DNA from: a virus
Taxonomy: Duplodnaviria; Caudoviricetes
Reading direction: 5' to 3' (one strand)
DNA: 64,000 bases
Virus record (IMG/VR): IMGVR_UViG_3300033072_000232
Coordinates: 17,777-81,776 of that record
This document shows positions 4,244-56,188 of this stretch, one piece after another. The notes below the pieces were generated by a model. That model was not told the origin of the DNA. It did no database searches and saw nothing but the letters and a program-made list of their open reading frames with translations. Both the position numbers and the translations under genes were made by a program. Each line of letters opens with the position of its first letter. Positions within the stretch are counted from its first letter, which is position 1.

Positions 4244-4320
4244 ACTCATGGCTAGGCTGATCCCCGAAAAGAGAACTATCCACTCTCCTGCCACTGAGTA
4301 ATTGGTGGATGTTTCGGGAG
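4244..4320 (+). promoter_or_regulatory. structured 5-prime leader of endonuclease gene with anti-SD pairing
   Basis: Stem ACTCATGG/CCACTGAGT; loop CCCGAAA complementary to TTTCGGG over the SD; TGgTATAAT extended -10 at 4226-4234. Confidence 0.5.
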
Positions 4321-4325
4321 AAGCT

Positions 4326-5375
4326 ATGGAAGAAAAGTTACACTATGTGTATGTTCATTTACTAGATGGTAACATTAGATATGTCGGCATTGGCAGGAAA
4401 TATCAAAATGATACTAAATATACTCGTGCAAATATCTTCAGTCCAAGTGTAAGAACTAAAGAGTGGCGAGCTATATTTAAAGATACAAAACCAGAGGTTA
4501 AGATTCTTGAAGAAAATTTAGAGTACATGGATGCAATATCCCTTGAGAATTACATATATCATTCATGTAAAGAAAATAATTTAGCGAATATTACAGAACC
4601 AAAACCTGTTGCTGAATTGGATTACAAGTATTTTAAACACTGGTTTTATGTTGATGAAACAAGTCCATCAGGATTACGCGTTAACACATCACATAAGAAC
4701 AACCAAATGTCCAATCGACATGATGTGGCGGGAAGTATCGCCACAACTGTACAAGGTAAATCGTATTGGCGGGTCAAAGCAAATGGTATAGGTTATCTCG
4801 CTCACAGAGTTGTATACCTACTTTCATATGGTAAGATTAGTTCTACAAAAGTTATCAACCATATTGATGGTAATGGTCTTAATAACTCACTATCTAATCT
4901 TGAAGAAATCTCACAAGAACTAAACTGCTACAAGAAGAAAAATACAGTTTTGAATAATGTAGGTATCAAAGGAGCCTCATTTGTTAAATACAAAGGTAAA
5001 ACTGTTAGTATTTCAGCTAAGTTTTGTAGAGTTACTAAATCCTTTTGCATTGATTTATTTGGAGATATTGACTCAACAATAAGTGCGGTGTTACGTTGGC
5101 AGATGTATCAACAATATAAAGCAGGTATGCTTCAGTATAAAGATATTGAACCAATCCTCCATCTTTTGCTAGAAGATAAGAGAAAAACTGATGGCGTACA
5201 AGGTAAGTATCAACCATTGGAATTGAAATCTGGGCTATGGAGTGTCAGAGTACCAAATGGCCCATCTGTAAAGTATTCAACACTTACTGGTTTCAGTTCA
5301 AAGATTGAAGCTGAGGTAGCTAGAGATTTATATATCAAAGAACTTAATGAGAAGTTAATTACTTCTTTAGACTAA
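4326..5375 (+). mobile_element. free-standing homing endonuclease, GIY-YIG-like + HNH + AP2-like domains
   Basis: YVYVH..RYVGIG N-terminus; HRVVY..INHIDGNGLNN..NL HNH motif. Confidence 0.8.
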
Positions 5376-9289: not shown

Positions 9290-9321
9290 TACTTGATTAT
9301 TCCTTGACTGCATGATAAAAT
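9290..9321 (+). promoter_or_regulatory. putative late promoter (second copy)
   Basis: TACTTGATT-N-CATGATAAAAT, 17-nt spacer. Confidence 0.75.
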
Positions 9322-10269: not shown

Positions 10270-10409
10270 CTACGAATAGCTTTATAAAAGGCTACTGGTA
10301 GAAGATTACAAACCAAGATTATACAAGGAGTAATTAACCTTGTTAAAACAGTATTCCCTTGTACTGCATCTTGGTTTACCTATTTATCAAGGAGACATTA
10401 GGGAGTTAT

Positions 10410-11255
10410 ATGAAACAAGATTATTACGTTTATTTACATCGTAGGAATGATACTAACGAAGTGTTTTATGTAGGTAGTGGTAGAGACAACAGAGCTTATT
10501 CTAAACATAGTAGAAATAAGCAATGGAAAGCAATCACAGATTCTGTTGAATATACTGTAAGTATTGTGATGAGTAACCTATCTAAAGAAGATGCAAGAGA
10601 AGCTGAAACTTTATTAATTGAAATGTACGGTGATCAGGTTGTAAATGTGCATAAAGATAATACCGCACATGATCTAAATTCTTACTTTGATTTCTTGAAT
10701 GATTTGTTTTATGTAAATCCTGAAAGTCAAACTGGTCTTAGTTATAAGATAAATAGATATAAGAATAAAGGCGCTTTATCTAAGAAAGCAGGCGATGTTG
10801 CTGGTAAAGTTGCCGTACTTCCAAATGGCACATATAGAGGATATGATCTGAAGGTTACCTTTCCAGATGGTATTAAAAGAAACTTACAGGTACATAGAAT
10901 AGTTTGGTTGTTATCTACAGGTTCAGTTTCTGGTGAATTGGTTATTGATCACATTGATGGAAATCCTTTAAATAACGCAATTGCTAACTTGAGAGAAGTT
11001 TCGCATCAACAGAACTCCAGAAATAGAAAACCAAAGACAGACGGTATTCCGGGTGTGTATATTAAGCAAGGACTTCAATGGGTTGCTAGTTTACCTCATG
11101 AAGGTAAAACAAGAATCAGAGGATTTTCTATCAGCAAGTATGGTAATGATGCTGCAAGAGAAATGGCAATTGAAGCTAGAAAAGAATTCCTCAATGAAAT
11201 GAATAAAACAAGTGAGCCATTTTCGGATAGGCACACGTTATTAAAATTGGAATAA
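10410..11255 (+). mobile_element. free-standing homing endonuclease, GIY-YIG-like + HNH + AP2
   Basis: YYVYLH..FYVGSG; VHRIVW..IDHIDGNPLNNAIANLREV; start at ATG 10410 after GGGAG. Confidence 0.85.
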
Positions 11256-27080: not shown

Positions 27081-27917
27081 CTTCATTGTTACTCCGGTAA
27101 TACCGGGGTCAAGCTATTTCTACTTGACTCTGCATATCCCTATGCAGAACAGACTATATCACCACCCGATTTAACGGGGTTAATCATTCGGATTTTATAC
27201 TTAAAACTATCTTTCACATATGGTTCAACACCTTTACAAAACTTTTCTACATCTTTGCAACGAAGCCTTAGATAGTAGTATTGATTTTGTCGGTTAATAT
27301 TGAACTCTACATCTAGGACTTCTTTTATTGTTTTCTTCAGCATAAGTTGATCACCATAAGATAGTCGCTTCAAATTAAGCGTAAGGTTCCAAGAACTATT
27401 AACAAGTCCTTTCTTTGGGTTTGGTTTATCTTCAACCAAAGAACCATCACACATAAAAAGAATTGCAATTGCTTCCCAGTCTAGTAATTTTAGACTGTGA
27501 GGGTCAATACCTTTATAGTTATCAATATAGATTCGTTCACGTAGTGTTGTCAGAAAAGGATGTGTCTTACTTTCAAGACGAATCTGTTCTTTCCTGTTAC
27601 AACCGTCAGTGTTGTAATCTTCTCTTTCGTATTGTTTAGTTCCAACGAAAGAGTTTAATACTGAGTCTACCCAATCAATGTAGTCCTTGTGTTCTTTCTT
27701 CATGTTCATAATGAATTTTGCATTACTTGTATCTGATGTTTTATACACACCACCATCACCAAGTACAAAATAAGACACAAGTTTAGTTAGTTGTTTTTTA
27801 TCCATAGTCGTTACACCTTCCATATCGGATTGGCACGGTATTGGCTGTTCTAGCTATCCACCGTTTTTAGATTAATTATTCAGAAACAATTACTTGTTTA
27901 GGCCGCTAGTAAATTTA
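27081..27917 (-). mobile_element. group I intron (837 nt) in RNR
   Basis: 5-prime exon ends in U, intron ends in G; splicing restores YNP-C-VEI in frame; core elements GTGTAACGACTA (R) and GATATAGTCTG (S). Confidence 0.9.
27140..27805 (-). CDS. intron-encoded LAGLIDADG homing endonuclease
   Basis: Two motifs YFVLGDG and ILFMCDG; ORF sits between R and S elements; start 27805 or 27823. Confidence 0.85.
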   Translation of the reverse strand: MDKKQLTKLVSYFVLGDGGVYKTSDTSNAKFIMNMKKEHKDYIDWVDSVLNSFVGTKQYEREDYNTDGCNRKEQIRLESKTHPFLTTLRERIYIDNYKGIDPHSLKLLDWEAIAILFMCDGSLVEDKPNPKKGLVNSSWNLTLNLKRLSYGDQLMLKKTIKEVLDVEFNINRQNQYYYLRLRCKDVEKFCKGVEPYVKDSFKYKIRMINPVKSGGDIVCSA

Positions 27918-37865: not shown

Positions 37866-37940
37866 TGGTGCAAATGAGTGGACTCGAACCACTACTGTCT
37901 GAATTATGAGTTCAGGGCTTCTCCTTTAAGCTACATTTGC
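37866..37940 (-). tRNA. tRNA with CAT anticodon (Met or Ile2)
   Basis: Full cloverleaf GCAAATG..CTGAA-CTCATAA-TTCAG..AGTGG-TTCGAGT-CCACT-CATTTGC-A-CCA. Confidence 0.9.
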
Positions 37941-52508: not shown

Positions 52509-52590
52509 AATTTACTCCTGTGAAGTTTCTGCAACGCCTAGACTATACTACAAAATCTTGCTATGTAGTATACCTTAGTAAAATTTAAGG

Positions 52591-53202
52591 TTATTCTACA
52601 GGTGTCCACAGCTTAATATGCATTTCAAACATCATAATAGCAACAGCGTATTCTTGAGCATGGTTGTTATTATTGTGAGTTTCTTTTACAGATTCTTTGA
52701 AAACTTCAATACTATCAAAGAAACAACCTGTGCGAACAAAAGCACCGCTGTCAGTAAGGAACAATTCAAGAGTATCCGAACGAGAGCCAATGTTTTGAAT
52801 ACTGAAATAAGGGCGGACACCAACGAGTTTCCCTTTTTCGAAATTAGCACCGCACAGATCAGCGCCGTGAAGATTAACACCGTACAGATTAGCGCCGTAC
52901 AGATTAGCGCTGCGAAGATCAGCGCTGCGAAGATTAGCGCCGTACAGATTAGCGCTGCGAAGATCAGCGCTGCGAAGATTAGCGCCGTACAGATTAGCAC
53001 CGCACAGATCAGCGCTGCGAAGATTAGCGCCGTACAGATTAGCACCGCACAGATCAGCGCCGCGAAGATCAGCGCTGCGAAGATTAGCGCCGTACAGATT
53101 AGCGCCGGAGATTGCAGCTTTTTCAAGGATTTCTCGTTGAGTAATACCTGAAGTTTGATCTTCAAAAATAACATTAGAAGAAAAGCGGTTTTTGATTTGC
53201 AT
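52591..53202 (-). CDS. pentapeptide repeat protein
   Basis: Tandem A(N/D)LxG/S repeats encoded by 15-nt DNA repeats. Confidence 0.9.
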   Translation of the reverse strand: MQIKNRFSSNVIFEDQTSGITQREILEKAAISGANLYGANLRSADLRGADLCGANLYGANLRSADLCGANLYGANLRSADLRSANLYGANLRSADLRSANLYGANLYGVNLHGADLCGANFEKGKLVGVRPYFSIQNIGSRSDTLELFLTDSGAFVRTGCFFDSIEVFKESVKETHNNNNHAQEYAVAIMMFEMHIKLWTPVE

Positions 53203-53456
53203 GAAAGCTCCTTTAAGTAAGTTGATGAACGAAATGTAACACAGAATGTTTGAAATCTTAGATACCTTACTAAAGTTTAAGGTTATTCCTCTGATTTGTG
53301 AGGTGATAGCTTAGGTAGAATCAGCAGGATAGTCCTAGAAGCCACTAGGAAGCCCTAGGATGTGTTTAAAGCTAGTAGTTGATACGAAGGTAGCCTGAAG
53401 GTACGATAATCTGTTGTAGGCTGTTCTACGGCTTCTTGTAAGAATTATACACTTCT

Positions 53457-53488
53457 TACTTGAAATCATCACTGTAACATGATAAAAT
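53457..53488 (+). promoter_or_regulatory. putative late-type promoter (third copy)
   Basis: TACTTGAAA-N-CATGATAAAAT, TTGAAA-17-TAAAAT. Confidence 0.75.
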
Positions 53489-53494
53489 TCAAAT

Positions 53495-54000
53495 ACTGGT
53501 GCGCATCATCGTACCGATAGCCATGAGTATATCAGGAAGTCAGAACTTGAGATATGCTTAGGCTTGTTCCTAGTTGAGCTAAACAACTAGGGCTGAAACA
53601 GTCGCTTCTTCCTGTCGTCTTGGTGTCAGTGGTGAAACTCCACAGAAGCACCTTACCACTAGACCTTGACACTGTTTAGGCCACCCTCCGGTAACTCGCA
53701 AGCTAGGAGCGTTTGGAGAAACGCTTACAACACTACAGGCTCAATCTGTAGTTGCTAACCAGAAATGGAACGACCACTGACACCTTGTGGAACTAAACCC
53801 GGCAGTAACCTTACAGCTTTAGGCAAGTGCTGTAGTAGATTGGACTGAAGGCGACCTTGAATGGTTGAGCAATCTACAACGTAATTCGACCGAGGAAATA
53901 ACCTAGGTTGACGTTAGAGTACCTCTTGGTTAACCTAATCTTAGAATACTCCTAGGGGTATTTCTTGGGTTGGGTTAACTAAGGTGTACCTAACGTTTTC
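53495..54000 (+). ncRNA. candidate large structured non-coding RNA
   Basis: No ORF of 60 aa or more; many stems visible; promoter upstream and terminator downstream. Confidence 0.55.
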
Positions 54001-54108
54001 TCTCTCAGAAATATACTACAGTATAACTAAAGGTAATACTTTAAGTATAAAGTATAGTAGTAATGTAATAAGATAAATACTAAGGTATAACTTTAGTATA
54101 CAAAACGT

Positions 54109-54162
54109 AAGCCCCTGTGGAGCTAGGATAATAACCTAGTAATCTACAGGGGCTTTTCTTTT
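54109..54162 (+). terminator. rho-independent terminator
   Basis: AAGCCCCTGTGG...CTACAGGGGCTT followed by TTCTTTT. Confidence 0.8.
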
Positions 54163-54217
54163 GTCTGTACAGTTCGTGCTATACTCTACCCATCGTAGCA
54201 ACCAACAGGAGTAACTT

Positions 54218-55691
54218 ATGACTACAGCTAAACAACTGATTGCTTTCCTTAAAACACTTCCAGAAGATACTAGGATATTTGTTCTTGATTCTTTTGTAGA
54301 TAAGGACTTCAATACTGTTCCAGGTTTTAAGGACTTGTGTCTTGATGGGTCAATTACGCTAAGATCACCGAGTGAGTTATATCTGGTTGGTAAGAAAGAT
54401 TAAGGAGTAACTATGATCAGGTATTCAGTAAAAGACAAGCTACCAGAAGCAGGTGAAGAATGTGTATGGGATGGTTCATTGAAATCAAAACCTGTTCTTG
54501 CTTGGTCAAGTAAAGGAAAACCTAGTGTTTGTGTTATGTATAAAATACAAGATGACATCCGTTGGTTTGAAGGTTGTTATGAGGTTACTAAACATATCAC
54601 TCACTGGGCTTATATCCCTGAATTTAAGGAATAACATGCGTAAAGATCAATTAATCAAACTACTACAAGAAATCGAAGGTAATCCTGAAGTTGTGATATG
54701 GAACGGTCACGTAGGTGACTACATGCACATTGATAAACCAGTTCAATCTGATCTTGTTAAGATGACTAAGGACTATTGGATTGAGTCAGTAAGATTAGAA
54801 GAATGCGTTGATCGTGGAGACTTTACTTATCAACTACCTGAACATGAAGTAAAAGAACTTGAACGTAGACACCGTAATGAAATTCCGTGGGAATGTGGGG
54901 AGTACGTTACTGAAGAGGATGTCGACCGTAATCGCTACAAACGTAAACGAGTAGTTTTTATTCAGGTGAAGAAACGTGGTGTTAAGACATTTGATAGAGT
55001 TGGTGTTATCGAATACTAAGGAAGAATCATGAAACAACCTAAAGAATGCTCTAACTGCATGCACTGGTCTAAACATACGTGTCTTGATTCAGAAGGTAAA
55101 CCTATTCTGAAATATGATGCAAAGTACAATAAGTATGTTACACTAGCTGAACCGTACTGGATGTTCGAAGATTGTAAGAAAAACTGGGGATTACCTCAAG
55201 TAGCTTACACGAGTGCTGATAACTGCAAGTACTACCGAGCTAAATAACCTTTTGTTTTACTCAAGTAATCAACAAGTCTGGAAACTACGCTATACTCGCT
55301 TCACCGTAAACAACCGAAAGGAAACCAAATGTCCAAGATTAAAATGATTCCATCTACCGTATCTATCCTTGAAGGAGGTAGCGGTACTGCACCAGAACTA
55401 TTCACCGTTATTCGCTGGCCTGCTGTTGATAAGCATTCTCTGAGTCAATCAGAAATTGACTTCTTGCGTAAACTGTTGGTACTCTCTGAAGAAGCTATTG
55501 ATGACTATAAAGCAGAAGCAACAGAGTACCGTGAATTTTTGTGGAAGGGATGCGATGAAAACAATCCAGAGACACTAGATGCTTTTGTTGAACTTAATCG
55601 AGTAAAATCTAGTCTCAAAAAACTCCGCAAAGATAAAAAGACTATTGTAAGTATTTTCACTAAGTTGAAGCAACAAGCAAAGGTGCAATAA
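54218..55691 (+). CDS. cluster of five small early-type hypothetical proteins
   Basis: 54218-54403, 54413-54634 (DUF551-like), 54636-55019, 55029-55247, 55329-55691. Confidence 0.55.
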
Positions 55692-55831
55692 GAAATAGTA
55701 AGAGGCGATTAAAGCCTCTACAACAGCATAGAAGCCCTTCAGGCTACCTTCGTATTACCAATGGTGTTCTGAAGGCTTCTAGGGTGGTTTAAAGCCTTTC
55801 CAGCCCTATTCCTGAGATATAAATAAACAAC

Positions 55832-56188
55832 ATGCGTAAACGCTTTGAAATCTTTAGTCAAGCATTTGACCGCAAAGGGATGTTGCTTAGTAGTAGCCTA
55901 AACAGCTACTCAAAATCGCATCCTATGCAACTCTATTTTAGTAAACAAGCAGGAATGTCAGAGCAACGTGTATACTTGCATTCTGAACTTGCTTGCTTGA
56001 TTAAAGCAACAGGTAGGCTTGGTAAAGATTCTCGGAGTGTTCATACATTGCTTGTACAGAGGTTCAATAGCAAAGGTTGTCCTGTGCTTTGCAAGCCTTG
56101 TGATAGCTGTATGTTGGCTATACAAGCATACGGTGTGAAGATTTTGAAGTATACTGATAACGGTAAATTGGTTACTGTTGAACTTTAA
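55832..56188 (+). CDS. cytidine deaminase-fold protein
   Basis: HSE...PCDSC zinc motif. Confidence 0.7.
   Translation: MRKRFEIFSQAFDRKGMLLSSSLNSYSKSHPMQLYFSKQAGMSEQRVYLHSELACLIKATGRLGKDSRSVHTLLVQRFNSKGCPVLCKPCDSCMLAIQAYGVKILKYTDNGKLVTVEL

What the first reader, a model, noticed from the sequence alone, without database searches (positions are those of the whole stretch)
53457..54162. Candidate undescribed large structured ncRNA under a virion-gene-type promoter
Seen: ~1 kb with no ORF of 60 aa or more. The promoter TTGAAA-17-TAAAAT shares the TACTTGA..CATGATAAAAT motif otherwise found only before head (833-864) and tail (9290-9321) genes. A terminator lies at 54109-54162. Between them is a dense set of stems: CCTAGTTG/CAACTAGG (53569-53591), a 12-bp long-range stem GGTGTCAGTGGT/ACCACTGACACC (53622-33 with 53773-84), AGCGTTT/AAACGCT (53708-25), ACTACAG/CTGTAGT (53732-52), CCA-GAAA-TGG, TACAGC/GCTGTA (53812-34), GTAGATTG/CAATCTAC (53835-77) and an ~85-nt hairpin (53911-96). 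TCCACAG (53639-45) can pair with TTGTGGA (53785-91), forming a pseudoknot across the long stem. The 53622-33 arm also has an alternative local partner (53653-73), suggesting two conformations. Established: phages carry large structured RNAs of unknown function (ROOL, GOLLD) and packaging RNA (phi29 pRNA). Inference: a late ~500-nt RNA, possibly involved in assembly, packaging or anti-defence.
Basis: partly seen in the sequence, partly recalled or inferred. Interest (0 to 1): 0.85.

Follow-up and report, generated by a model that had tools for sequence, protein, structure and literature searches.

The report
Conserved large phage RNA gene
An uncultured freshwater/wastewater phage carries a stand-alone gene, with its own promoter and terminator, for a folded non-coding RNA of about 665 bases that matches no catalogued RNA family; its 430-base core is kept almost unchanged in related phages, and its job is unknown.

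Summary
Window 53203-54217 is a 1015-nt ORF-free gap between divergent operons of an 82-kb Pakpunavirus-like phage. It contains one transcription unit: a sigma-70-type promoter (53457-53488), a start near 53495 and an intrinsic terminator (54109-54162), giving about 665 nt rather than about 500.

A metagenome contig (L033) carries the whole unit. The promoter hexamers are kept while the spacer has diverged. The 5' hairpin and the terminator stem show compensatory changes. The 436-nt core is 95% identical, against 39-73% for the unit's other parts and 69-86% for neighbouring genes. Contigs from four laid sequencing runs add variants whose few changes are mostly compensatory, wobble or in loops, and they fit the + strand.

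There is no Rfam hit and no copy in the phage, plasmid, E. coli or GTDB collections searched, nor in 20 related phage genomes or fragments. The proposed pseudoknot and the inner part of the 12-bp stem are contradicted by covariation, which favours two local hairpins.

A sibling phage (L048) keeps the same promoter, 5' hairpins, tail and terminator. It carries an unrelated ~380-nt core plus a GIY-YIG homing endonuclease.

Function is unknown; the best guess is a trans-acting accessory scaffold or decoy RNA. This scan has noted large phage RNAs in other genomes, but none resembles this sequence.

The parts
53457..53488 (+). Promoter: -35 region TTACTTGA (hexamer 53460-53465), 17-nt spacer, extended -10 TG-n-TAAAAT (53480-53488)
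   Evidence: There are three perfect copies of the 18-base motif in the genome. The -35 core and the TG-TA-AAT positions are invariant in the L033 and L048 units while the spacer has diverged. The consensus scan gives 10 of 12 matches with TG.
53495..54162 (+). Inferred transcript, about 665 nt. The start is inferred from the -10 position and the end from the terminator U tract.
   Evidence: Homology with L033 runs from 53480 to 54156 and stops there. MFE z is -7.3. No ORF is present, a 1-nt indel lies inside the core, and the variable sites show no codon periodicity on my count.
53497..53516 (+). P1: 5'-terminal hairpin (7 bp, 6-nt loop)
   Evidence: It folds in all three units. G-C changes to A-U in L033, and three stem pairs change on both sides in L048.
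53519..53564 (+). P2: hairpin with a conserved base (AGCC/GGCU) and a hypervariable upper part
   Evidence: It is 39% identical between window and L033 yet forms a hairpin in each, and it is shorter in L048. The flanking CCGAUAGCC and GGCUUGUUC are invariant in all three.
53561..53996 (+). Core A: 436-nt highly conserved multi-helix domain. Helices:
- 53569-76/53584-91
- 53629-32/53640-43
- 53707-14/53719-26
- 53732-39/53745-52
- 53759-61/53766-68
- 53774-77/53787-90
- 53835-42/53870-77, with inner 53852-56/53863-67
- 53886-90/53907-11
- long hairpin 53911-53996
- possible pseudoknot 53622-28 with 53778-84 (invariant, untested)
   Evidence: The core is 95% identical to L033, and 100% over 53561-53631. 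It is 95-97% identical in contigs of runs X4, X13 and X19. Compensatory pairs are 53632/53640, 53732/53752 and 53776/53788. Wobble-type changes are 53679, 53750 and 53967. The other changes lie in loops or bulges.
53997..54108 (+). AT-rich tail with two 22-nt imperfect direct repeats (54007-28, 54071-92) and a small conserved hairpin (about 54077-54100)
   Evidence: It is 73% identical to L033. It is the only part after P2 with detectable similarity to the L048 unit. Repeats. The hairpin is kept, with G.U changing to G-C.
54109..54162 (+). Intrinsic terminator: two-tier hairpin followed by a U tract
   Evidence: It folds in window and L033 with several compensatory stem changes despite 57% identity. 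L048 has the L033-type terminator at 94%.
54157..54192 (+). Putative separate promoter of the rightward operon (TTGTCT ... TG-n-TATACT), overlapping the terminator tail. It is not part of the RNA.
   Evidence: Read directly from the sequence. The TATACTCT block is conserved in L033. Inference only.

Best explanation
This is an independent gene for a stable, highly structured non-coding RNA of about 665 nt. It is carried as an accessory, moron-like module at the junction of the two divergent non-structural operons.

Shown:
- A conserved sigma-70-type promoter of the same type as the two virion-gene promoters.
- A 5'-terminal hairpin maintained by compensatory change.
- A hypervariable peripheral hairpin.
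- A 436-nt core under very strong conservation, whose few changes mostly preserve pairing on the + strand.
- An AT-rich tail and a conserved intrinsic terminator.

Inferred: the promoter, P1/P2 and terminator form an expression and stabilisation frame. The core is the functional cargo. It acts in trans through its three-dimensional fold, as a scaffold or decoy that binds a phage or host macromolecule while virion genes are expressed, rather than by antisense pairing.

The module is dispensable or replaceable. Related phages lack it, and one sibling phage has exchanged the core for an unrelated one together with a GIY-YIG homing endonuclease.
For: Unit-level conservation with L033:
- Homology starts at the -10 box and ends at the terminator, while the flanking genes differ.
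- Promoter hexamers are invariant and the spacer has diverged.
- P1 and the terminator are compensated.

Conservation profile:
- Identity is core 95%, P2 39%, tail 73%, terminator 57%. Neighbouring genes are 69-86%.
- The same left edge of conservation (about 53561-53563) is seen in an independent contig of run X4.

Structure:
- Variants from four laid runs and L033 give three compensatory pairs. They also give G.U/A-U changes that would be A.C on the other strand, and the remaining changes are mostly in loops.
- With the window-only MFE structure, L033 has 9 doubly changed pairs that stay paired, against 2.1 expected (P<0.001).
- Folding z is -7.3.

Not coding, not antisense:
- There is no ORF and there is an indel in the core.
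- No antisense match to the phage genome exceeds chance.

Accessory status:
- The module is absent from 18 IMG/VR relatives (3 of them complete genomes) and from two cultured relatives, by BLAST and by a covariance model that recovers the window's own copy.
- The syntenic gap in relatives is only 120-280 nt.
Against: - No direct evidence of transcription, transcript ends, strand or timing. The one metatranscriptome contig (X19) cannot show these.
- Only about five variants are known, and all are 95% or more alike in the core, so long-range helices and any pseudoknot are untested.
- Many window-MFE pairs are broken in L033 in the variable parts.
- The step-like identity profile could partly reflect recombination in a genome rich in homing endonucleases.
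- The sibling's unrelated core shows core A is not indispensable.
- The proposed mode of action (scaffold or decoy) rests on exclusion and analogy only.
Confidence: 0.62

Rival explanations
1. The core is cargo of a homing-endonuclease-driven selfish cassette. Its near-identity among phages would reflect recent horizontal spread by gene conversion rather than function, and the RNA fold would be incidental or would serve only the element.
For: - L048 has a GIY-YIG+HTH gene inside the same unit, with the core replaced, while the promoter, P1/P2 and terminator stay L033-like.
- Identity along the unit changes in steps.
- The genome carries many HNH, LAGLIDADG and GIY-YIG type genes.
Against: - Window and L033 have no endonuclease gene in or beside the unit.
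- The core variants differ by 3-5%, and the changes are biased to structure-neutral positions.
- The edge of conservation coincides with a structural boundary in three lineages with three different P2 hairpins.
- No target-site duplication or terminal repeats lie at the core edges.
Confidence: 0.15
2. The unit is a replication-origin element. A promoter-driven structured primer or R-loop RNA (ColE1 RNA II or T4 ori type) would run into an AT-rich unwinding region with iteron-like repeats.
For: - It lies at the divergent-operon junction and at the cumulative GC-skew minimum.
- The order is promoter, then structured RNA, then an AT-rich tract with two 22-nt direct repeats.
Against: - Related complete genomes have only 120-280 nt at this junction and no homologue anywhere.
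- A strong conserved terminator directly follows the tail.
- The tail hairpin shows an RNA-type G.U to G-C change.
- In L048 a 600-nt gene is inserted between tail and terminator.
- The GC-skew turn coincides with the change of gene orientation, so it is not independent evidence.
Confidence: 0.08
3. The region is a long cis-acting leader (riboswitch or attenuator) controlling the downstream rightward genes.
For: It lies upstream of the rightward operon and ends in a terminator that could be conditional.
Against: - The genes downstream of the unit are unrelated in window and L033, and homology resumes only 1.1 kb later.
- A separate promoter-like site follows the terminator.
- No alternative anti-terminator is evident.
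Confidence: 0.04
4. The region is a divergent member of a known ribozyme or RNA class, such as a group I intron, RNase P-like RNA, ROOL or GOLLD, that Rfam models miss.
For: - Rfam's group I model is weak on this phage's own intron (22.5 bits against a gathering score of 50), so some known classes can be missed.
- A homing endonuclease sits in the sibling unit.
Against: - No hit to any of these families even at E up to 10, whereas the control intron scores E 0.004.
- The unit interrupts no gene.
- No tRNA is nearby.
Confidence: 0.04

Closest known systems
ROOL (Rfam RF03087) and GOLLD (RF01998), large ornate RNAs of phages and prophages
   Same: Both are 0.5-0.8 kb, many-helix, ORF-free RNAs of unknown function carried by phages as stand-alone genes. 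The conserved core with variable peripheral stems is also alike.
   Different: There is no covariance-model match even at E 10. This RNA is not next to tRNA genes; the nearest is 15.5 kb away. The host range differs: this phage is related to freshwater betaproteobacterial phages. Multimer formation is untested.
Late-expressed ncRNA1/ncRNA2 of Pseudomonas phage PAK_P3 (bioRxiv 10.1101/2023.10.13.562163)
   Same: They are non-coding RNAs of a related myovirus lineage that accumulate late in infection.
   Different: They are about 120-210 nt and are processed from a 3' UTR without their own start site. They show no sequence similarity: the phage collection search found nothing.
phi29 packaging RNA (pRNA)
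   Same: It is a phage-encoded structured RNA that acts as a structural part of a machine.
   Different: pRNA is 174 nt, and Rfam finds no match. This RNA is not adjacent to packaging genes. Close relatives with the same virion genes lack it, which argues against an essential assembly role.
T4 SegB and other free-standing GIY-YIG homing endonucleases lying among RNA genes (from my own knowledge of the T4 literature)
   Same: In L048 a GIY-YIG+HTH gene sits inside the RNA gene unit, and the flanking RNA sequence is exchanged, as expected from co-conversion.
   Different: This applies to the sibling allele only. The window's unit has no endonuclease gene, and cleavage specificity is unknown.
ColE1 RNA II / T4 R-loop origins
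   Same: The layout is alike: a promoter, a long folded RNA, then an AT-rich tract.
   Different: A strong terminator follows the tail. The element is missing from related complete genomes.

Membership tests
ROOL / GOLLD (Rfam RF03087, RF01998) | Match to the family covariance model | tested here: not met
   cmscan at gathering threshold on the whole window and at E up to 10 on 53150-54260 found no hit to either family.
ROOL / GOLLD (Rfam RF03087, RF01998) | Frequent location beside tRNA genes in phages or prophages | tested here: not met
   The only tRNA in the window is at 37866-37940.
ROOL / GOLLD (Rfam RF03087, RF01998) | RNA-only symmetric multimer (nanocage) | not testable with these tools
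   This needs cryo-EM or native gels. Palindromic loop candidates (53903-08, 53952-55) are not conserved in L033 or X4.
Group I intron | Match to RF00028 / conserved catalytic core | tested here: not met
   There is no RF00028 hit at E up to 10 for the window region or at E up to 1 for L048. The phage's own intron at 27130-27247 scores 22.5 bits, E 0.004.
Group I intron | Interrupts a host gene whose exons are restored by splicing | tested here: not met
   The unit lies between operons and has its own promoter and terminator. No split ORF or RNA gene flanks it.
Stand-alone bacterial-type RNA gene | Own promoter and intrinsic terminator, conserved across homologues | tested here: met
Stand-alone bacterial-type RNA gene | Secondary structure supported by compensatory substitutions | tested here: met
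   11 kept double changes among 174 predicted pairs (window and L033). 9 against 2.1 expected on the window-only MFE. Three compensated pairs lie inside the core among five variants. Power is low for long-range helices.
Stand-alone bacterial-type RNA gene | Discrete transcript detected | tested here: inconclusive
   A 256-nt contig of a metatranscriptome run (X19) covers 53646-53890 at 95%. Contigs cannot show ends, strand or level, and DNA carry-over is possible.
phi29-type pRNA | Match to Rfam pRNA model; essential partner of the packaging motor | tested here: not met
   There is no Rfam hit. The RNA is absent from relatives with homologous virion genes.

The most novel reading that the evidence does not exclude
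The unit is a fixed expression frame (promoter, 5' hairpins, tail, terminator) for interchangeable large RNA 'cargo' cores. Phages would swap unrelated ~400-nt structured cores (A in the window, B in L048) by homing-endonuclease-driven conversion, much as they swap anti-defence protein genes. Each core would be a folded decoy or inhibitor aimed at a different host factor or defence system. This would be an RNA counterpart of accessory-gene cassettes.
Probability: 0.15. Interest if true: 0.8.

Novelty: new variant of a known kind. Interest (0 to 1): 0.6.

Why it matters
Few RNA classes longer than 400 nt are known in bacteria and phages, and none has a settled function. This one has a clean gene anatomy and an exceptionally conserved core that turns up in wastewater, freshwater and sediment samples. 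It also has a natural 'swap' allele with a homing endonuclease, which offers a genetic handle. Cultured relatives on Limnohabitans and Curvibacter lack the RNA, but they could serve as a chassis. If such a system can be set up, deletion, core exchange and structure work could test whether large phage RNAs act as scaffolds or as anti-defence decoys.

Tried and rejected
Homologue searches that found nothing:
- Phage records, blastn, plasmids and E. coli genomes.
- IMG/VR exact patterns from core A and core B.
- GTDB species genomes with two core patterns.
- Earlier windows of this scan.
- A spurious-ORF look-up in the protein collection.

Other search results:
- The JGI metagenome scan gave one contig, L033.
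- The leader pattern CCGATAGCC..GGCTTGTTC in IMG/VR gave 48 hits. All were unrelated GC-rich coding DNA, close to my rough estimate of about 60 chance matches.
- Relatives reached through the neighbouring 142-aa gene, the ligase and the 118-aa gene either lack the unit or are too short.
- GIY-YIG relatives in IMG/VR have no cassette.

Core A against core B: there is no similarity by blastn, nhmmer, Smith-Waterman (tail only), model R1, or a crude structure-profile alignment (SCI 0.14 against 0.13-0.19 for shuffles).

Other ideas rejected:
- RNase P-like motifs recalled from memory: no Rfam or E. coli match, so dropped.
- Antisense targets in the phage genome: only chance 12-mers.
- Complementarity to E. 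coli rRNA: one 12-mer in variable region V1, E 0.16, taken as chance.
- CsrA-type GGA sponge: the GGA count is at expectation.
- Terminal repeat: none, and the region is single-copy.

The parts of the stretch without cover in the laid runs are likewise not evidence.

Full report
**Setting.** The window is bases 17777-81776 of an 81,776-bp IMG/VR virus record estimated 99% complete. Its major capsid protein is closest to those of Limnohabitans phage DC31 (50%, filed under Pakpunavirus) and Curvibacter phage P26059A (47%), followed by PAK_P1/KIL-type Pseudomonas phages. The finding lies in the only gap of about 1 kb without an ORF of 60 aa or more (53203-54217). On its left, a long leftward block of replication and nucleotide-metabolism genes begins at 53202 with a pentapeptide-repeat protein. 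On its right, a rightward block begins at 54218.

**Check of the observation.** The 18-base promoter motif occurs three times in the entire genome without a single mismatch. All three copies are on the + strand, at 833, 9290 and 53457, against 0.14 expected at up to three mismatches. The other two copies precede the head protease/decoration/capsid genes and the tail-chaperone gene, so 'virion-gene-type promoter' is a fair description. By sequence it is also a near-consensus sigma-70 promoter with an extended -10. The + strand from 53495 to 54162 folds at -229 kcal/mol (z -7.3), and the opposite strand less well (z -5.1). Rfam 15 gives nothing at gathering thresholds and only junk at E up to 10.

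**Homologues.** The 28 ligase-anchored IMG/VR loci lack the element. In those that keep the gene order, the same divergent junction is only 120-280 nt. Neither nhmmer, BLAST over 17 of the whole records (three of them complete genomes) nor a covariance model of 53684-53832 (R1) finds a copy. R1 recovers the window's own copy at E 2.5e-53. The two cultured relatives are also negative.

A look-up of sequencing runs was the turning point. I laid four runs:
- Run X2 (wastewater) holds near-identical pieces.
- A 668-nt contig of run X4 (freshwater) matches 53563-53989 at 97%, but its preceding 242 nt are unlike the window.
- A contig of run X13 (wastewater) covers 53561-53798 with 6 differences.
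- A contig of a sediment metatranscriptome (X19) covers 53646-53890 with 13 differences.

An exact-word scan of JGI metagenomes then gave one 12.4-kb contig, L033, from a related phage.

**Anatomy from the comparison with L033.** Similarity begins at the -10 box (53480) and ends at the terminator (54156). The genes on both sides of the unit are different in the two phages, and homology resumes only at 55312. Going through the unit in order:
- Promoter: the -35 core and the TG-n-TA-n-AAT positions are invariant while the spacer has diverged. The same holds for the L048 unit and the two virion promoters.
- P1 (53497-53516) is a 5'-terminal hairpin with a G-C to A-U exchange.
- P2 (53519-53564) keeps its closing AGCC/GGCU pairs, but its upper part is only 39% identical and still folds as a hairpin.
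- The core (53561-53996) is 95% identical, and 100% over 53561-53631.
- The AT-rich tail is 73% identical.
- The terminator is 57% identical yet folds in both, with several compensated positions.

Neighbouring protein genes are 69-86% identical at the DNA level, so the core is by far the best-kept segment of the shared region.

**Structure.** Only about 27 core positions vary among the five variants (window, L033, X4, X13, X19).
- Three pairs change on both sides and stay paired: 53632/53640 (G-C to A-U), 53732/53752 (A-U to G-C) and 53776/53788 (A-U to G-C, in all four other variants).
- Positions 53679, 53750 and 53967 are G.U/A-U alternations. On the complementary strand they would be A.C mismatches, which favours the + strand.
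- Positions 53859/60, 53904, 53942, 53953, 53964 and 53970 fall in loops or bulges of the predicted hairpins.
- Positions 53661, 53664, 53675/76, 53680 and 53757 are not explained by any helix I could support.

Using a structure predicted from the window alone, L033 keeps 9 doubly changed pairs against 2.1 expected (P<0.001). However, 35 of 55 touched pairs are broken, nearly all in the fast-evolving P2, tail and terminator, where the alignment is poor.

The TCCACAG/TTGTGGA pairing becomes A.C in the variants, and the inner four pairs of the 12-bp stem are not maintained in L033. The same nucleotides instead form two compensated local hairpins (53629-32/53640-43 and 53774-77/53787-90). The outer seven pairs (53622-28 with 53778-84) are invariant. 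They could form a pseudoknot with the loop of the second hairpin, but that is untested.

**The unexpected allele.** The 118-aa gene at 55832 led to Logan and ENA contigs of a sibling phage: L048, which is identical over the 1,374-nt unit region to L100-L102. L048 has the same promoter type. Its P1 keeps the hairpin with three stem pairs changed on both sides. It also has the invariant CCGAUAGCC, a short P2 with the same closing pairs and the invariant GGCUUGUUC. After that comes about 380 nt with no detectable similarity to core A. This segment is itself well folded (z -5.0) and has no Rfam match. It is followed by a tail homologous to the window's tail, a 198-aa GIY-YIG plus helix-turn-helix homing-endonuclease gene, and finally the L033-type terminator at 94%. 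R1, nhmmer and a crude structure-profile alignment (SCI 0.14 against 0.13-0.19 for shuffled controls) find no relation between the two cores. The frame is therefore conserved and the cargo is exchangeable. The endonuclease is the obvious agent of exchange, though this is an inference.

**What it is.** The simplest reading is a stand-alone gene for a stable structured RNA. The supporting points are:
- a conserved strong promoter;
- a 5' hairpin of the kind that stabilises transcripts;
- a peripheral hypervariable stem beside an almost frozen core, as in other functional RNAs;
- a conserved terminator;
- a separate promoter-like site for the next operon just downstream.

It is not coding: there are no ORFs, a 1-nt indel lies in the core, and the variable sites show no codon periodicity on my count. 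It is not a leader for particular genes, because the downstream genes differ. It shows no antisense target in its own genome above chance. It is accessory, because relatives do without it. I therefore favour a trans-acting RNA that works through its fold, as a scaffold or decoy for a phage or host factor, made together with the virion proteins. That last step is inference.

The neighbouring pentapeptide-repeat gene belongs to a protein type for which an anti-defence role has been reported in a Vibrio phage (bioRxiv 10.1101/2024.07.02.601686; lead). This makes an accessory or counter-defence neighbourhood plausible. The adjacency is not conserved in L033 or L048, however.

**Rivals.**
- Homing-driven spread could explain part of the step-like identity profile. 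Against it, window and L033 have no endonuclease in the unit. The variants differ by 3-5% at mostly structure-neutral sites. The edge of conservation coincides with the P2/core boundary in three lineages with three different P2 hairpins.
- An origin-primer role fits the position and the AT-rich repeats. It does not fit the terminator, the absence from complete relatives, or the tolerated 600-nt insertion in L048.
- A group I intron or another known class is unlikely. This phage's own intron is seen by RF00028 at E 0.004, while the RNA region gives nothing at E 10, and no gene is interrupted.

**Novelty and limits.** No catalogued family, paper or public phage record that I could search matches it. 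Earlier notes of this scan describe other large phage RNAs in other genomes, but none shares sequence with this one. In kind it joins the large ornate phage RNAs such as ROOL and GOLLD, without being a member of either.

The weak points are:
- the narrow known distribution (two assembled contigs plus fragments);
- the low diversity of the core, which leaves the tertiary and long-range structure open;
- the lack of any direct transcript evidence.

Noticed in passing
L048:4729-5819 (identical in L100, L101, L102): The sibling phage carries an unrelated, well-folded ~380-nt core plus a GIY-YIG+HTH homing-endonuclease gene. Both sit inside the same promoter/P1/P2/tail/terminator frame.
   Followed up: partly
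window 52591-53202 (- strand): The first gene of the leftward operon is a very regular pentapeptide-repeat protein (Pfam PF00805, E 1e-39). A phage protein of this type was reported to counter the Sucellos defence system (bioRxiv 10.1101/2024.07.02.601686).
   Followed up: partly
window 27130-27247 (- strand): Rfam's group I intron model hits inside the ribonucleotide-reductase gene region at 22.5 bits (E 0.004), below the gathering score of 50.
   Followed up: partly
window 54157-54192: A promoter-like site (TTGTCT, 17-18 nt, TG-n-TATACT) overlaps the terminator's U tract. Its -10 block is conserved in L033. It is probably the start of the rightward operon.
   Followed up: no
window 54007-54028 and 54071-54092: Two 22-nt imperfect direct repeats (82%) lie 64 nt apart in the AT-rich tail. 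The motif AATACTAA-K-GTAT is kept in L033 and L048.
   Followed up: partly
window 53262-53288 vs 52570-52596; 53382-53419 vs 55718-55755 (inverted): Short repeated elements (27 nt at 93%, 38 nt at 82%) link the region upstream of the RNA promoter with two other intergenic spots. They may be regulatory sites.
   Followed up: no
genome position 8749 (9027 bases before the window start): This is a fourth promoter of the same type with two mismatches (TACTTGA-N14-TATGTTAAAAT), outside the window.
   Followed up: no
window 4302-5375 and 10359-11255: HNH endonuclease genes sit directly after the capsid gene and after the tail-chaperone gene. The genome is unusually rich in homing-type nucleases.
   Followed up: no
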